A stretch of DNA of 64,000 bases from Escherichia coli. Lineage in GTDB: Bacteria > Pseudomonadota > Gammaproteobacteria > Enterobacterales > Enterobacteriaceae. The notes under the pieces were generated by a model, which was not told the DNA's origin, made no database searches, and worked only from the letters and a program-made list of their open reading frames with translations. The stretch lies in assembly GCF_030013595.1 (NCBI RefSeq), contig NZ_CP122768.1; one strand, given 5' to 3'. This document shows, piece after piece, positions 10,857 through 15,261 of the stretch; positions within the stretch are counted from its first letter, which is position 1; each line of letters begins with the position of its first letter. The position numbers and the translations under genes were made by a program.

Positions 10857-11062
10857 TTTTCATCCCTGCCACAATGGCCCGTTAGCAACGTCGAATAATT
10901 ATTATGCGTGAGAATTTACGTTATGTAATTCAGTATCACGCCCATACAATCCGAATTTTAGTGAGAATTGTGGCTCAGACAGCCAAATCAGTCTCTTTTG
11001 CTTGTCGCTTTTCACTAAACATCCGACAATTTAGCCTAACCCCGGCAAAAATGGAGATGCCT

Positions 11063-11908
11063 ATGTCCACGACATGGTTTGTAGGAGCCGACTGGCTCGC
11101 CGAACATATTGATGACCCGGAAATTCAGATTATCGATGCCCGCATGGCGTCGCCTGGACAGGAAGATCGTAACGTTGCTCAGGAGTATCTGAATGGACAT
11201 ATTCCCGGCGCAGTGTTTTTTGATATCGAAGCGCTTTCTGATCACACTTCCCCGCTTCCGCACATGCTGCCGCGCCCGGAAACGTTCGCCGTGGCGATGC
11301 GTGAGTTAGGCGTTAACCAGGATAAGCACCTGATTGTCTATGACGAAGGTAATCTTTTCTCAGCCCCACGAGCATGGTGGATGCTGCGCACCTTTGGTGT
11401 AGAGAAAGTGTCGATTCTGGGGGGTGGACTTGCAGGCTGGCAGCGCGATGATCTGCTGTTAGAAGAAGGTGCAGTAGAGCTGCCGGAAGGAGAGTTTAAC
11501 GCCACGTTTAATCCTGAAGCCGTGGTGAAAGTCACCGATGTGTTATTGGCAAGCCATGAAAATACGGCGCAAATTATTGATGCCCGCCCGGCTGCACGTT
11601 TTAACGCAGAAGTTGATGAACCTCGCCCAGGTTTACGTCGCGGACATATTCCCGGCGCGTTTAACGTTCCGTGGACAGAACTGGTACGTGAAGGCGAACT
11701 AAAAACGACCGATGAACTGGATGCGATATTTTTTGGTCGCGGCGTAAGTTATGACAAACCTATTATCGTCAGTTGCGGTTCTGGTGTAACGGCAGCCGTG
11801 GTTTTGTTGGCACTCGCGACGCTGGATGTGCCAAACGTGAAACTGTACGACGGCGCATGGAGTGAATGGGGCGCACGGGCAGATTTACCGGTTGAGCCAT
11901 TGAAATAA
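11063..11908 (+). CDS. sseA: 3-mercaptopyruvate sulfurtransferase
   Basis: ORF track frame 10904..11908; start trimmed to MSTTWFVGADW (281 aa); rhodanese active-site CGSGVTA. Confidence 0.9.
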   Translation: MSTTWFVGADWLAEHIDDPEIQIIDARMASPGQEDRNVAQEYLNGHIPGAVFFDIEALSDHTSPLPHMLPRPETFAVAMRELGVNQDKHLIVYDEGNLFSAPRAWWMLRTFGVEKVSILGGGLAGWQRDDLLLEEGAVELPEGEFNATFNPEAVVKVTDVLLASHENTAQIIDARPAARFNAEVDEPRPGLRRGHIPGAFNVPWTELVREGELKTTDELDAIFFGRGVSYDKPIIVSCGSGVTAAVVLLALATLDVPNVKLYDGAWSEWGARADLPVEPLK

Positions 11909-11924
11909 GCTTTTTACAGGCAAT

Positions 11925-11953
11925 AAAAAACCGCCGAATTTGGCGGTTTTTTA
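11925..11953 (+). terminator. rho-independent terminator downstream of sseA
   Basis: Hairpin ccgccgaa/ttTggcgg followed by T-tract (aaaaaaccgccgaatttggcggttttttatt). Confidence 0.7.
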
Positions 11954-12099
11954 TTGCTGGTCTGGTTCGCGGCCTTTCCAGCAGGTTGACTTGTGTTGTC
12001 GGAGCAACGCAGGTGCTTCACAGCAAAGCAATACTCGCCAGTAACTCTCTTTTTGTCAAGCGAAAGAGAGTAATCATTGTTTATTTAGCGTATTATCGA

Positions 12100-12405
12100 C
12101 ACCGGCCCTTTCCGCCGTCTCGCAAACGGGCGCTGGCTTAAGGAAAGGATGTTCCATGGCCGTAAATGCAGGTGTTTCACAGCGCTTGCTATCGCGGCAA
12201 TATCGCCAGTGGTGCTGTCGTGATGCGGTCTTCGCATGGACCGCACAATGAAGATACGGTGCTTTTGTATCGTACTTATTGTTTCTGGTGCGCTGTTAAG
12301 CGAGGTAAATAATAACCGGAGTCTCTCCGGTAACAATTTACTGGTGGTTAACAAACTTCAGAGCAGCAAGTAAGCCCGAATGCCGCCCTTTGGGGCGGCA
12401 TATTT
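12100..12405 (+). ncRNA. ryfA: ryfA-type small RNA / timP mRNA, copy 1 (5' end not determined)
   Basis: Location between sseA and sseB where RyfA maps in E. coli; ends at hairpin gccgccc-tttg-gggcggc plus atatttt; contains small hydrophobic ORF. Confidence 0.45.
12236..12373 (+). CDS. timP: small hydrophobic protein, TimP-like type I toxin candidate (MDRTMKIRCFCIVLIVSGALLSEVNNNRSLSGNNLLVVNKLQSSK; may start at second Met)
   Basis: Own translation; ORF below the 60-aa track cutoff; hydrophobic TM-like core IRCFCIVLIVSGALL; position inside ryfA. Confidence 0.5.
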   Translation: MDRTMKIRCFCIVLIVSGALLSEVNNNRSLSGNNLLVVNKLQSSK

Positions 12406-12488
12406 TAGATTATCCGATGCTGTTTAAAGTCACGCAAAAAACCACCCCAGCGACGTTCATAGAATGGCGCAATATGTTCGGTAATAAA
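12395..12488 (-). pseudogene. duplicated 3'-terminal fragment of sseB (~30 codons) carried in repeat unit A
   Basis: Sequence ttagattatccgatgctgtttaaagtcacgcaaaaaaccaccccagcgacgttcatagaatggcgcaatatgttcggtaataaa is identical to the 3' end of sseB at 13083-13166. Confidence 0.8.
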
Positions 12489-12779
12489 ATAACCTAGCTT
12501 ATTAGTCCGAATTCAGACAAATATAAACAATTTTCGCTTAATATTAAAAATACTAACCAATAAAAGATATTACTTGAACATGTAATTTCACTTTCTTTAA
12601 ACAACAAAAAACCGCCAAAATCAGGCGGTTATTTGTTGCTGGTCTGGTTCGCGGCCTTTCCAGCAGATTGTATTACCGTAGTAATGCAAGCGCGTCTCAG
12701 CGGACACAATACTCGCCAGTAACTCTCTTTTTGTCAAGTAAAAGAGAGTTATTATTGTTCTGTTAGTGTATTATCCACT

Positions 12780-13085
12780 GCGGACCTTTCCGCCGTCTCG
12801 CAAGCGGGCGCTGGCTTAAGGAAAGGATGTTCCGCGACCGTTAGAGCAAGCGCGTCTCAGCGCTTGCTATCGCGGCAATATCGCCAGTGGTGCTGTCGTG
12901 ATGCGGTCTTCGCATGGACCGCACAATGAAGATACGGTGCTTTTGTATCGTACTTATTGTTTCTGGTGCGCTGTTAAGCGAGGTAAATAATAACCGGAGT
13001 CTCTCCGGTAACAATTTACTGGTGGTTAACAAACTTCAGAGCAGCAAGTAAGCCCGAATGCCGCCCTTTGGGGCGGCATATTTTA
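12780..13085 (+). ncRNA. ryfA: ryfA-type small RNA / timP mRNA, copy 2 (5' end not determined)
   Basis: Duplicate of copy 1; terminator hairpin 13060-13077 and T-tract overlap the sseB stop codon. Confidence 0.45.
12914..13051 (+). CDS. timP: small hydrophobic protein, TimP-like type I toxin candidate, copy 2 (identical 45-aa translation)
   Basis: Own translation of atggaccgcacaatgaagatacggtgcttttgtatcgta...agcagcaagtaa. Confidence 0.5.
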   Translation: MDRTMKIRCFCIVLIVSGALLSEVNNNRSLSGNNLLVVNKLQSSK

Positions 13086-13859
13086 GATTATCCGATGCTG
13101 TTTAAAGTCACGCAAAAAACCACCCCAGCGACGTTCATAGAATGGCGCAATATGTTCGGTAATAAAGTGGCTAATTCCTTTTTCCCCTTTTTTCACCTGA
13201 CAAATATCGATGGGTTCATCGCCAGGTAATGTATCGGTCGCTACACTTCCTGCCGCCTGAATAATTTCTTCGATATCACCATCGGCTTCAATGCCAATAA
13301 GTAAATTAGGCTGTGCCTCTTCGTTCTCTTTAATTGAACAAATAAAAGCACGCTTCACCGGCTTAATAGTTTTAAATAAGGTGGTGAGTGAATCAATCAT
13401 TTGTGCTGGTGGCTCTGCAACTTCCGATAATATCAGCGATTCACCGCCTTCCAGTACTTCCTGGCTGCTCAGCGGATTTCCTTCTTCACCAATCAGCAAA
13501 CTGATTTCACGCGGCATAAATTCTTTACCGGTTGGCAGTTTGGCATTAAGGAAGAGCGTTTCGCCAAGGGTCATCTCAAACAATGTGCGAACGGGCATTA
13601 CGACAAATGCCTGTTCGTCTTCAACCGCCTGTTGAAGTGCTTCTAACGAGGTGAAAAAAGGAATGACGCTGGTGCCGTCTTCTTTTTCCCAGTGCTGTAA
13701 ATCAAGCGCGCTATCTTCAACCACAGCCTCGCCCTTCGCCGCCGTACCAGGCACCCAGACGGTGGATTCCAGTAGCGTACGGAAAAAGGCCGGGCGGTGC
13801 GCCGGTTCGGTTGCTGCTTTTTCCAGCAGATCTTCAAGTTCGTTTTTTGTTTCGGACAT
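13083..13859 (-). CDS. sseB: SseB family protein (enhances serine sensitivity)
   Basis: ORF track 13083..13868; start trimmed to MSETKNELEDLL (258 aa). Confidence 0.9.
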   Translation of the reverse strand: MSETKNELEDLLEKAATEPAHRPAFFRTLLESTVWVPGTAAKGEAVVEDSALDLQHWEKEDGTSVIPFFTSLEALQQAVEDEQAFVVMPVRTLFEMTLGETLFLNAKLPTGKEFMPREISLLIGEEGNPLSSQEVLEGGESLILSEVAEPPAQMIDSLTTLFKTIKPVKRAFICSIKENEEAQPNLLIGIEADGDIEEIIQAAGSVATDTLPGDEPIDICQVKKGEKGISHFITEHIAPFYERRWGGFLRDFKQHRII

Positions 13860-13977
13860 AAGAACCACAATTCATTCAACGTTCGGGGCACAAGTGCCTG
13901 ATGCGCTACGCTTATCAGGCCTACAAGGGAATCTCAATCTATTGGATTTTCGCAATTTTGTAGGCCAAATAAGACGT

Positions 13978-15261
13978 TTACGCCGTTAACAGATTAGCAA
14001 TCGTGCGCACACCTAGCCCGGTCGCGCCCGCAGACCACTGTTCAACCGGCGATTTACGGTAAGTCGCCGAGCAGTCGATATGCAGCCAGCCTTGCTGATA
14101 GTTCTCAACAAAGTGCGACAGGAAGCCCGCCGCCGTGCTCGCGCCTGCCGGATACGCCGCGCTTCCGGTATTGTTCAGTTCCGCAAAGTTAGACGGCAGC
14201 TGGCTGCGGTGGAACTCCGCCAGCGGCAGACGCCAGAACGGTTCATTCTCCTGCGCGGCACTCGCCAGCAAGCGACCGGCAAGCGCATCGTCAAAACTGA
14301 ACAGCGCGTGATAATCATTACCCAGCGCAGTTTTCGCCGCCCCGGTGAGGGTCGCCGCATCAATGATCAGTTCCGGTTTCTGCGCACTGGCATCAATCAG
14401 GCCATCGGCCAGCACCAAACGCCCTTCGGCATCAGTGTTCATCACTTCAACTTTTTTACCGTTGCGATAGGTAATAATATCGCCCAGTTTGAACGCGTTG
14501 CCGCTGATCAGGTTATCCGCACAGCAGAGGAACAGCTTCACGCGCTTGTTCAGTCCGCGCGTAATGGCAAATGCCAGCGCCCCGGTAACCGTTGCCGCGC
14601 CGCCCATGTCCGACTTCATCGAGTCCATAAACGCAGTCTGTTTGATGCTGTAGCCGCCGGAGTCAAAAGTGATACCTTTACCTACCAGGCACGCGTACAC
14701 TGGCGCTTCTTTATCGCCTGTTGGGTTGTAATCCAGCGCCAGCAATACCGGGGAACGTTCTGAACCGCGCCCGACCGTGTGCAGCCCCATATAACCTTGA
14801 TCACGCAGATCTTCACCTTTGGTGATCCGATAAGTCACACGATCGCCCGCGACGTTGCTGATCAGATCAACAGCACGCTGTGCCAGTTGCGATGGTCCCA
14901 ATTCTTCTGCCGGTGCGTTGATGGTGTCACGCACCCAGTCGATGATCATCAGGCGGTTATCCAGTTCCTGCCGCTGGGCATCGTCCAGATCCGGCCACTC
15001 CACTTTACGCGTGCCTTTCGGGGCTTTGTAACCTTGCCAGAATGTCCAGCAGCGATCCGCATCCCAGCCTTCACCGCTTAACTGAACATGTTTGATGCCC
15101 AGACCGTCAATCTTGCGCGCCGCACGCTGGATCAGCCCCAGATCGTCTGCCCCGTTCAAATGCAGGGTAATGCCATCATTATTAATGCTGTAAGTCGCTT
15201 TTTCTCCCCAGCGCGCGTCGGCAGGTTGGGTAGAGAGGGTAATTTTCATCGCTTCTGTCAT
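13978..15261 (-). CDS. pepB: aminopeptidase B (M17 peptidase)
   Basis: ORF track 427 aa; M17 motif NTDAEGRL. Confidence 0.93.

What the first reader, a model, noticed from the sequence alone, without database searches (positions are those of the whole stretch)
13058..13085. ryfA copy-2 terminator overlaps the sseB stop codon on the opposite strand
The hairpin gccgccc-tttg-gggcggc and its T-tract (13060-13084) terminate the + strand ryfA/timP transcript, while the sseB stop codon (13083-13085, minus strand) lies inside the T-tract. The convergent transcripts overlap at their 3' ends, a possible site of antisense interference between the sRNA/toxin locus and sseB.
Basis: inference. Interest (0 to 1): 0.25.

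Follow-up and report, generated by a model that had tools for sequence, protein, structure and literature searches.

The report
Shared hairpin ending ryfA and sseB
One GC-rich hairpin, squeezed into the 31 bases between the convergent E. coli genes timP (carried on the ryfA RNA) and sseB, marks the 3' end of both transcripts. This layout is real but ordinary: it is already in the K-12 annotation and in published 3'-end maps, and nothing shows that it regulates either gene.

Summary
The hairpin ATGCCGCCC-TTTG-GGGCGGCAT (13058-13079) is followed by ATTTTAG. The sseB stop codon (TAA, 13083-13085, minus strand) uses the last two T of that tract.

The hairpin is the conserved terminal stem of Rfam family ryfA. 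This copy spans 12780-13084 and scores 310 bits.

The overlap is not new:
- The MG1655 RefSeq record already shows ryfA and sseB overlapping by 2 nt.
- Published Term-seq and RNAtag-seq maps of K-12 place the RyfA 3' end at the equivalent of 13083-13087.
- The same maps place the sseB mRNA 3' end just past the hairpin, at the equivalent of 13052-13055.
- The two RNAs therefore overlap by about 28-35 nt, which is the hairpin itself.

In the ryfA direction the site is a standard intrinsic terminator. In the sseB direction it has no U tract, and some transcripts continue about 160 nt further.

Across 80 species the contact with the stop codon follows a 4-5 nt shortening of the spacer. Salmonella and Citrobacter keep a 3-nt gap, and E. 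whittamii has a 174-nt insertion.

Regulatory "antisense interference" is untested, and four published datasets give no sign of it. Verdict: confirmed, already known, low interest.

The parts
12731..12758 (+). Sigma-70 promoter of ryfA copy 2 (TTGTCA-16-TATTGT)
   Evidence: The promoter scan finds it. The same hexamers are listed as the constitutive RpoD promoter for ryfA in the genomic SELEX table of PMC3946193.
12780..13084 (+). ryfA copy 2, the RNA that carries timP
   Evidence: Rfam RF00126 scores 310.4 bits over model positions 1-296. It aligns with K-12 ryfA b4440, 2653855-2654158.
12926..13051 (+). timP ORF (41 codons plus TAA stop at 13049-13051)
   Evidence: ORF list. [quoted passage not shown]
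13058..13079 (.). Shared hairpin ATGCCGCCC-TTTG-GGGCGGCAT, read as a stem-loop in both transcripts
   Evidence: -18.1 kcal/mol on + and -17.2 on -. It is the conserved terminal stem of RF00126. The core is invariant in 10 species.
13080..13087 (+). U-rich tail ATTTTAGA holding the RyfA 3' ends
   Evidence: By K-12 equivalence, the Term-seq 3' end 2654157 maps to 13083, the TRS peaks 2654159-2654161 map to 13085-13087, and the RefSeq ryfA end 2654158 maps to 13084.
13083..13085 (-). sseB stop codon TAA, sharing 13083-13084 with the T tract
13083..13859 (-). sseB coding sequence (258 aa)
   Evidence: Pfam SseB N-terminal domain (82.7 bits) and SseB_C (103.9 bits); annotation. Its own constitutive promoter lies in the pepB-sseB spacer.
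13052..13082 (-). sseB 3' UTR (about 28-31 nt), ending 1-4 nt from the timP stop codon
   Evidence: TRS 'Primary sseB' terminus 2654124-2654135, with peaks at 2654127/28/30 and a 3' UTR of 31 nt, transferred to window coordinates through the alignments.
12891..12900 (-). Alternative sseB 3' end. Read-through transcripts reaching it are antisense to the whole timP ORF and its ribosome-binding region
   Evidence: TRS 'Alternative primary sseB' terminus 2653966-2653975, R 0.50-0.61, just past the antisense copy of the RyfA stem GCGGTC..GACCGC; coordinates transferred by alignment.
12380..12401 (.). Identical hairpin of ryfA copy 1
   Evidence: The two repeat units are 271/271 identical over 12218-12488 versus 12896-13166.
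12405..12497 (-). 93-nt remnant of the sseB 3' end carried along by the tandem duplication. Its dead stop codon sits in the copy-1 T tract in the same way
   Evidence: PGAP pseudogene 'SseB, incomplete' in the closest record; self-BLAST.

Best explanation
The site is an ordinary, compact, two-way 3'-end element between two convergent genes.

timP (on the ryfA RNA, + strand) and sseB (- strand) end only 31 nt apart, and one GC-rich hairpin fills that gap.

Read from the ryfA side, the hairpin plus the U-rich tail AUUUUAG is a standard Rho-independent terminator. RNA polymerase releases RyfA 4-9 nt after the stem, which is 1-5 nt inside the end of the sseB ORF (shown in K-12).

Read from the sseB side, the same palindrome forms an equally stable hairpin but has no U tract. 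Even so, most sseB mRNA ends 3-6 nt after it (shown in K-12), and a fraction ends about 160 nt further on, after a second hairpin that also lacks a U tract.

My inference is that sseB transcription partly runs through the hairpin. The hairpin then fixes the mature 3' end mainly as a barrier to 3'-to-5' exonucleases, perhaps helped by pausing or by collision with polymerases coming from the constitutive ryfA promoter.

The T tract touches the stop codon because a 4-5 nt loss in the spacer brought the hairpin closer to sseB. Nothing indicates a dedicated regulatory link between ryfA and sseB.
For: Anatomy: searches show 31 nt between the two stop codons and a minus-strand tail UCGGGCUUACUUGCU.

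Family: RF00126 scores 310 bits with the hairpin as its terminal stem.

Annotation: K-12 ryfA 2653855-2654158 and sseB 2654157-2654933 already overlap by 2 nt.

Mapped 3' ends in K-12:
- RyfA: 2654157(+) in three conditions and 2654159-2654161 with R 0.99-1.0.
- sseB primary end: 2654127-2654130(-), R 0.59-0.95, hairpin -16.9 kcal/mol, only 2 U downstream, 3' UTR 31 nt.
- sseB alternative end: 2653971(-), R 0.50-0.61.

Both genes have constitutive sigma-70 promoters.

Comparison across 80 species:
- Full ryfA lies next to sseB in 10 species.
- The Rfam model end overlaps the stop by 2 nt in the window and by 1 nt in E. coli L005 and Superficieibacter L057.
- It lies 3 nt short of the stop in Salmonella and Citrobacter, whose spacer is 4-5 nt longer.
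- It lies 174 nt away in E. whittamii, after an insertion.
- In genera without ryfA, sseB is followed within 3-15 nt by its own GC hairpin, often with a U tract (L028, L047, L052, L059, L062, L064, L065, L067, L069).
- When ryfA has been lost, its hairpin is kept intact or nearly intact next to sseB in 3 of 5 remnants (E. albertii L004, C. sedlakii L018, Superficieibacter L049).

Base rate: 99 of the 1175 3' ends mapped in LB (OD600 ~0.4) are both 'primary' and 'antisense'. MG1655 has 165 convergent overlapping pairs, 146 of them with overlapping terminators.
Against: All 3'-end data come from K-12, not from the strain of the window. K-12 has one ryfA copy and a TTT loop instead of TTTG.

The mapped ends are steady-state RNA ends, so they cannot separate termination from processing.

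Adams 2021 lists no minus-strand end here, so the sseB end rests on one study, although it appears in several of that study's datasets.

The absence of regulation is argued from indirect negatives only.
Confidence: 0.78

Rival explanations
1. The hairpin truly terminates sseB transcription as well. It would act as a collision-type bidirectional terminator: polymerases from sseB and from the strong ryfA promoter pause at the stem-loop, meet head-on and are released. On this view the sseB 3' end is made by termination, not by trimming.
For: Both 3' ends flank the one hairpin with a 28-35 nt overlap. Both promoters are constitutive. The published model describes bidirectional terminators between convergent pairs that do not look like intrinsic terminators, do not need Rho, and use the hairpin as the pause site. 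No Rho termination region is reported at ryfA or sseB (files 2-4 without hits).
Against: Local read-through at the sseB end is substantial (R 0.59-0.95, against 0.99-1.0 for RyfA). A second end lies 160 nt further on, again just after a hairpin with no U tract. That pattern is what exonuclease trimming of longer transcripts produces. In E. albertii and in genera without ryfA, sseB ends next to hairpins with no strong convergent sRNA promoter nearby.
Confidence: 0.3
2. One reading: the 3' overlap is a regulatory site (an excludon). Abundant RyfA RNA, or convergent transcription from its promoter, would lower sseB expression, or the reverse, through polymerase interference or RNase III cleavage of the RNA duplex.
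For: A real 28-35 nt complementary overlap exists, and some sseB transcripts are antisense to about 190 nt of ryfA. The two hairpin loops (UUUG and CAAA) are complementary, so a loop-loop contact is conceivable (inference). The junction is present in 5423 of 5426 complete E. coli genomes.
Against: sseB, sseA, pepB and locus tags c3043-c3049 other than c3045 are absent from the 484 genes changed at |log2FC| >= 1.7 in CFT073 delta-ryfA. ryfA and sseB do not appear in any of the 10 supplementary tables of p19-captured RNase III dsRNAs, and such dsRNA is 37.9-fold less dense at convergent than at divergent overlaps. The pair is not among the 165 convergent excludons. Each RNA locks the overlap into its own hairpin of -17 to -18 kcal/mol. 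The contact is not conserved and is split by 174 nt in E. whittamii. Most relatives have sseB without ryfA.
Confidence: 0.1
3. sseB read-through transcripts act as a second, cis-encoded antisense repressor of timP. Those ending near 12896 are fully complementary to the timP ORF and its ribosome-binding region, as in type I toxin-antitoxin pairs whose RNAs overlap at their 3' ends.
For: The alternative sseB terminus at 2653971(-) corresponds to about 12896, which is 30 nt upstream of the timP start codon at 12926. timP mRNA is abundant but poorly translated (PMC7667032).
Against: TimR alone accounts for the repression in Salmonella, where deleting timR induces TimP. sseB is weakly expressed, at 0.35-0.38 read starts per nt in the CDS. 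No dsRNA signal is reported here. The alternative end could belong to another antisense transcript.
Confidence: 0.06

Closest known systems
The ryfA (b4440) / timP (b4812) 3' end as annotated in E. coli K-12 MG1655
   Same: It is the same locus, the same hairpin and the same contact with sseB. RefSeq has ryfA ending at 2654158 and sseB starting at 2654157. The mapped 3' ends agree.
   Different: The window carries two tandem ryfA/timP units where K-12 has one. Its hairpin loop is TTTG where K-12 has TTT.
Overlapping bidirectional terminators between convergent gene pairs (Ju, Li and Liu 2019; Wang et al. bioRxiv 10.1101/2022.10.23.513370)
   Same: Two convergent transcription units share one stem-loop between the gene ends, and the 3' ends of both RNAs flank the stem and overlap.
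   Different: One direction (ryfA) is a conventional intrinsic terminator with a U tract. Whether the sseB direction depends on collisions and is independent of Rho was not tested. I could not check whether this pair is in the SEnd-seq list, because the paper is not held.
Canonical two-way intrinsic terminator (A tract, hairpin, T tract), for example the sseA/TimR hairpin at 11925-11950 in this same window
   Same: It is a shared hairpin between convergent units, with 3' ends mapped on both sides in K-12: sseA at 2653384(+) and timR at 2653353(-).
   Different: The sseA/TimR element has U tracts in both directions (AAAAAACCGCCGAATTTGGCGGTTTTTT). The ryfA/sseB hairpin has one only on the ryfA side.
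Convergent excludons (ExcludonFinder, PMC12288877)
   Same: The 3' UTRs overlap because a terminator is embedded in the neighbour's transcript. The spacer is short: 31 nt here, against a mean of 95 nt in the excludon set.
   Different: The pair is not in the published list of 165, which does contain other small-toxin pairs such as yncP-hokB and ysaE-hokA. There is no evidence of mutually exclusive expression.
Type I toxin-antitoxin pairs whose toxin and antitoxin RNAs overlap at their 3' ends (B. subtilis txpA/RatA and bsrG/SR4; from my own knowledge)
   Same: A small membrane-toxin mRNA has its 3' end complementary to a convergent transcript.
   Different: The convergent RNA here is an ordinary mRNA (sseB). 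The demonstrated repressor of timP is the divergent sRNA TimR, which pairs with the 5' UTR.

Membership tests
Rfam RF00126 (ryfA RNA) | Covariance-model score at or above the gathering threshold (80 bits) over the full model, including the terminal stem-loop | tested here: met
   310.4 bits over model positions 1-296 at 12780-13084. Copy 1 scores 311.1 bits at 12102-12406.
timP/TimR toxin-repressor module (Andresen et al. 2020) | Small ORF for a hydrophobic, signal-sequence-like peptide inside ryfA | tested here: met
   ORF 12926-13051 encodes MKIRCFCIVLIVSGALLSEV.... It is annotated as TimP in the closest record and in K-12.
timP/TimR toxin-repressor module (Andresen et al. 2020) | [quoted passage not shown] | tested here: met
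   12686-12702 matches 12846-12862 at 17/17 on the same strand, so the minus-strand RNA is complementary. The terminator is at 12630->12610. A strong minus-strand 3' end is mapped at the K-12 equivalent.
timP/TimR toxin-repressor module (Andresen et al. 2020) | Toxicity of the peptide on overexpression and its relief by the sRNA | not testable with these tools
   Shown only for Salmonella (PMC7667032). It is disputed for E. coli.
Rho-independent (intrinsic) terminator, ryfA direction | G+C-rich stem with a short loop, followed directly by a U-rich tract | tested here: met
   9-bp stem with 7 G-C pairs and a 4-nt loop; the tail AUUUUAGAUU passes the scan's minimum of at least 5 T in an 8-base window. 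The tract is short, with four consecutive U.
Rho-independent (intrinsic) terminator, ryfA direction | RNA 3' ends mapped a few nucleotides after the stem in vivo, with little read-through | tested here: met
   Published K-12 data: 2654157 and 2654159-2654161 with R 0.99-1.0. This has not been measured in the window's own strain.
Canonical bidirectional intrinsic terminator | A U-rich tract after the hairpin on both strands (an A tract upstream on the + strand) | tested here: not met
   The minus-strand tail is UCGGGCUUACUUGCU. TRS counts only 2 U downstream. The scan does not call the site on the minus strand.
Overlapping bidirectional terminator of a convergent pair (Ju et al. 2019 sense) | 3' ends of both convergent transcripts flank a single stem-loop and overlap | tested here: met
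   K-12 has sseB ending at 2654127-2654130(-) and RyfA at 2654157-2654161(+), an overlap of 28-35 nt.
Overlapping bidirectional terminator of a convergent pair (Ju et al. 2019 sense) | Termination depends on convergent transcription (collision) and not on Rho | not testable with these tools
   This needs promoter mutants or in vitro transcription. The only relevant observation is that no Rho region is listed here.
Convergent excludon | Transcript overlap detected by RNA-seq coverage in at least 50% of transcriptomes (published MG1655 map) | tested here: not met
   Neither timP-sseB nor ryfA-sseB is among the 165 listed pairs. Caveat: the method works on CDS pairs, and the annotation version it used is unknown.
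Convergent excludon | Mutually exclusive expression, or RNase III processing of the overlap | tested here: inconclusive
   There is no p19 dsRNA cluster naming ryfA or sseB, and sseB is not in the delta-ryfA differential list. These are indirect negatives only.

The most novel reading that the evidence does not exclude
The overlap could be functional. One version: the complementary hairpin loops and the 28-35 nt duplex couple sseB mRNA fate to the abundant RyfA/timP RNA. The other version: sseB read-through transcripts, which are antisense to the whole timP ORF and its ribosome-binding site as far as about 12896, serve as a second, cis-encoded repressor of the TimP toxin alongside TimR. Either version would tie a toxin-like module to the expression of a housekeeping neighbour.
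Probability: 0.08. Interest if true: 0.4.

Novelty: already known. Interest (0 to 1): 0.12.

Why it matters
It matters little beyond bookkeeping. The site is a clean example of how two convergent genes 31 nt apart share one hairpin as the 3' end of both RNAs. It terminates canonically in one direction and non-canonically in the other.

There are two practical points:
- ryfA deletion mutants that remove the hairpin also remove the 3'-end element of sseB. Such mutants are used to assign virulence and stress phenotypes in UPEC, APEC and Shigella, so their design and complementation should take this into account.
- The comparative series (hairpin kept after ryfA loss in E. albertii; an insertion separating hairpin and stop codon in E. 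whittamii) offers natural variants for anyone studying two-way terminators.

If the improbable regulatory reading were true, it would add a second layer of control to the TimP/TimR module.

Tried and rejected
1. I first concluded that no sseB 3' end had been mapped, because Adams 2021 lists none on the minus strand. The TRS tables overturned this.

2. I inferred that the short U tract (four U) makes the ryfA terminator leaky into sseB antisense. TRS local read-through is close to zero (R 0.99-1.0), so I dropped the idea.

3. I proposed the hairpin ACCGGAGAGACTCCGGT + UAUUAUUU (13009->12993) as the sseB terminator. No 3' end is mapped there; the mapped ends are at about 13052-13055 and about 12896.

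4. I looked for Rho-loading signals (C over G) downstream of sseB and found nothing clear; the maximum C/G is 1.9 in one 60-nt window.

5. Several sources held nothing usable:
- The Dar and Sorek 2018 and Conway 2014 supplements are not held.
- The SMRT-Cappable-seq tables have no entry.
- Ju et al. 2019 is not held.
- A literature search for RIL-seq, ProQ and RyfA found only papers not relevant to sseB.

6. Single-sequence nhmmer could have missed diverged ryfA copies. I therefore repeated the search with a profile and with Rfam on 40 loci, and got the same presence/absence pattern.

7. I checked whether the type of sseB stop codon tracks the presence of ryfA. It does not: both TAA and TGA occur with and without ryfA.

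Full report
**What is in the sequence.** The window region 10904-15261 is the E. coli sseA - ryfA/timP - sseB - pepB locus. Rfam finds two full ryfA copies, at 12102-12406 (311.1 bits) and 12780-13084 (310.4 bits). Copy 2 ends in the hairpin ATGCCGCCC-TTTG-GGGCGGCAT (13058-13079), followed by ATTTTAGATT. sseB (Pfam SseB and SseB_C) runs on the minus strand over 13083-13859, and its TAA stop occupies 13085->13083. Two of the four T of the tract (13083-13084) therefore belong to the stop codon. The timP stop codon is at 13049-13051, so the two convergent ORFs end 31 nt apart and the hairpin fills almost all of that gap.

**Is it more than chance?** Hairpin stability alone is not compelling. In a 56-nt context the fold is -19.6 kcal/mol with z = -2.1, and 9 of 200 shuffles do as well. 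Three other lines carry the argument:
- The stem is the terminal helix of the Rfam ryfA model.
- Its GCCGCCC/GGGCGGC core is invariant in Escherichia, Salmonella, Citrobacter and Superficieibacter.
- The 101-nt junction is present in 5423 of 5426 complete E. coli genomes.

**It is already annotated and mapped.**
- In MG1655 RefSeq, ryfA is 2653855-2654158(+) and sseB is 2654157-2654933(-), a 2-nt overlap.
- Adams et al. 2021 (PMC7815308, supplementary file 1) list a Term-seq 3' end at 2654157(+) in all three growth conditions, classed 'internal ryfA, antisense sseB'. This is the window's 13083.
- The TRS study (PMC10687069) calls a 'Primary ryfA,timP' terminus at 2654159-2654161, with a statistic of 0.99-1.0 that means almost no local read-through.
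- The same study maps a 'Primary sseB' terminus at 2654127-2654130(-). It lies 3-6 nt past the antisense hairpin AUGCCGCCCAAAGGGCGGCAU (-16.9 kcal/mol), has only 2 U downstream, and gives a 3' UTR of 31 nt.
- It also maps an 'Alternative primary' sseB terminus at 2653971(-).
- Transferred through the alignments, these ends correspond to window 13052-13055 and about 12896.

The two RNAs thus overlap by 28-35 nt, and that overlap is the hairpin.

**How it most likely works.**
- In the ryfA direction the element is a conventional intrinsic terminator, and this is shown.
- In the sseB direction there is no U tract: the tail is UCGGGCUUACUUGCU.
- Read-through at the sseB end is appreciable (R 0.59-0.95).
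- The second sseB end, about 160 nt further on, again lies just after a hairpin with no U tract. That hairpin is the antisense of a conserved RyfA stem.
- This pattern is typical of transcripts that run on and are trimmed back to stable stems by 3' exonucleases. I therefore infer that the hairpin mainly acts as a 3'-end barrier for sseB mRNA.
- A contribution from pausing and head-on collision with polymerases from the ryfA promoter remains possible, as in the bidirectional-terminator model of Ju and Wang. Both genes have constitutive sigma-70 promoters.
- The data do not separate these two routes.

**Comparative evidence.** A scan of one genome per species with SseB returned 80 loci. A profile nhmmer search and Rfam both find a full ryfA next to sseB in only 10 of them, and none in 20 representative other genera.

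| Lineage | Position of the ryfA model end relative to the sseB stop |
|---|---|
| This window | overlaps by 2 nt |
| E. coli L005, Superficieibacter L057 | overlaps by 1 nt |
| Salmonella, Citrobacter | 3 nt short; the spacer (TTTCTTTTCTT or TTTCCTTTAAT) is 4-5 nt longer |
| E. whittamii | 174 nt away, behind an inserted repeat that looks like an ERIC/IRU element (the identification is from my own knowledge) |

- In genera without ryfA, sseB is followed within 3-15 nt by its own GC hairpin, often with a clear U tract.
- Where ryfA has been lost secondarily, its hairpin is retained next to sseB in 3 of 5 remnants.
- In E. albertii only the hairpin and about 20 nt survive between sseA and sseB.
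- Taken together, the hairpin is useful to sseB and to whatever converges on it, while the exact contact between T tract and stop codon is incidental.

**Regulation?** Nothing supports antisense interference:
- The 484-gene differential list of CFT073 delta-ryfA contains c3045, which is probably the deleted locus itself. It does not contain sseB, sseA, pepB or c3043-c3049.
- None of the 10 supplementary tables of p19-captured RNase III dsRNAs names ryfA or sseB. Convergent overlaps in general give 37.9-fold less dsRNA than divergent ones.
- The pair is not among the 165 convergent excludons of MG1655.
- Each RNA sequesters the overlap in its own hairpin of -17 to -18 kcal/mol.
- None of the ryfA papers I read discusses sseB beyond naming it as a flanking gene.

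These negatives are indirect, so I leave about 10% for some interference. I leave about 6% for the idea that sseB read-through RNA, antisense to the whole timP ORF, helps to silence timP.

[quoted passage not shown] ExcludonFinder reports 165 convergent overlapping pairs, 146 of them with overlapping terminators. The same window holds another example 1.1 kb upstream: the sseA/TimR two-way terminator at 11925-11950, with ends mapped on both sides in K-12.

**Verdict.** The regulatory suggestion is unsupported. The feature is already known and is a routine member of a very common class. Interest is 0.12.

Noticed in passing
window 11921-12488 and 12602-13166: The tandem duplication of the whole timR-ryfA/timP unit (period 678-682 nt) is a mosaic. 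The 3' 271 nt (timP ORF, hairpin and the last 84 nt of sseB) are 271/271 identical between the copies. The 5' 300 nt (timR and the ryfA 5' UTR) are only 72-90% identical. This suggests gene conversion or a recent exchange of the 3' half. About 160 extra copies of the junction among 5425 E. coli genomes imply that roughly 3% carry two units.
   Followed up: partly
window 11966-12030, 12640-12710, 12165-12181, 12846-12862: Each TimR copy matches its own RyfA copy (15/17 and 17/17) and matches the other poorly (12/17). The two units look like separate specificity pairs, in line with the RyfB1/RyfA1 specificity reported for Shigella dysenteriae.
   Followed up: partly
window 12119-12474 (absent from K-12); L003 857-956 and 1172-1290: K-12 lacks 356 nt of this arrangement (the ryfA copy 1 body plus most of the sseB remnant) but keeps both timR copies. 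The annotated TimR (b4811, next to sseA) is 15/17 complementary to K-12 RyfA. The second TimR-like gene lies directly upstream of ryfA and has a very strong mapped 3' end (2653679, 107,037 reads), but it has no matching site in K-12 RyfA (best 12/17). It is not annotated.
   Followed up: partly
window 12438-12648 (+): The Rfam 'IS128 RNA' hit (RF00125, 212 bits) consists of the tail of the sseB remnant, an AT-rich junction, and the reverse complement of the TimR copy-2 terminator. The strong experimental 3' end there is on the opposite strand ('antisense IS128'). The family may therefore describe a by-product of the duplication rather than an sRNA of its own.
   Followed up: partly
window 11925-11950: This is a textbook two-way terminator (AAAAAACCGCCGAATTTGGCGGTTTTTT) shared by sseA (+) and TimR copy 1 (-). 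K-12 3' ends are mapped on both sides, at 2653384(+) and 2653353(-).
   Followed up: yes
window ~12865 (+): Adams 2021 lists an internal RyfA 3' end at 2653940(+). It lies about 3 nt after the TimR-pairing site (12846-12862). It could be a product of cleavage guided by TimR, or of premature termination.
   Followed up: no
L004 3275-3348 (E. albertii); L018, L049, L008, L009: ryfA has been lost several times, leaving only its 3' end next to sseB. In E. albertii just the hairpin and about 20 nt remain between the convergent sseA and sseB stop codons. C. sedlakii keeps the last 73 nt. One Superficieibacter keeps the hairpin. C. braakii and C. werkmanii keep partial hairpins.
   Followed up: partly
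L006 3259-3432 (E. whittamii): A 174-nt insertion containing GGAGCTTACATAAGTAAGTGACTGGGGTGAGCG (an ERIC/IRU-like repeat, identified from my own knowledge) sits exactly between the ryfA T tract and the sseB stop codon.
   Followed up: partly
L084 (E. coli P276M) 597-945: This is the one E. coli genome of 5426 with a divergent junction. It has a degraded ryfA 3' end (164.6 bits), no intact hairpin, and an sseB annotated as a frameshifted pseudogene.
   Followed up: partly
window 12975-12980 and 13036-13038: Relative to the Rfam consensus and to Salmonella and Citrobacter, the E. coli timP region carries two small in-frame insertions (TAATAA and CAA). E. coli TimP is therefore 41 aa, against 38 aa in Salmonella.
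   Followed up: no
window 13893-13960: A REP-type palindrome (gcctgatgcgctacgcttatcaggcctac) fills the sseB-pepB spacer. Rfam gives a weak match there to ES036 (24.3 bits, below the gathering score).
   Followed up: no
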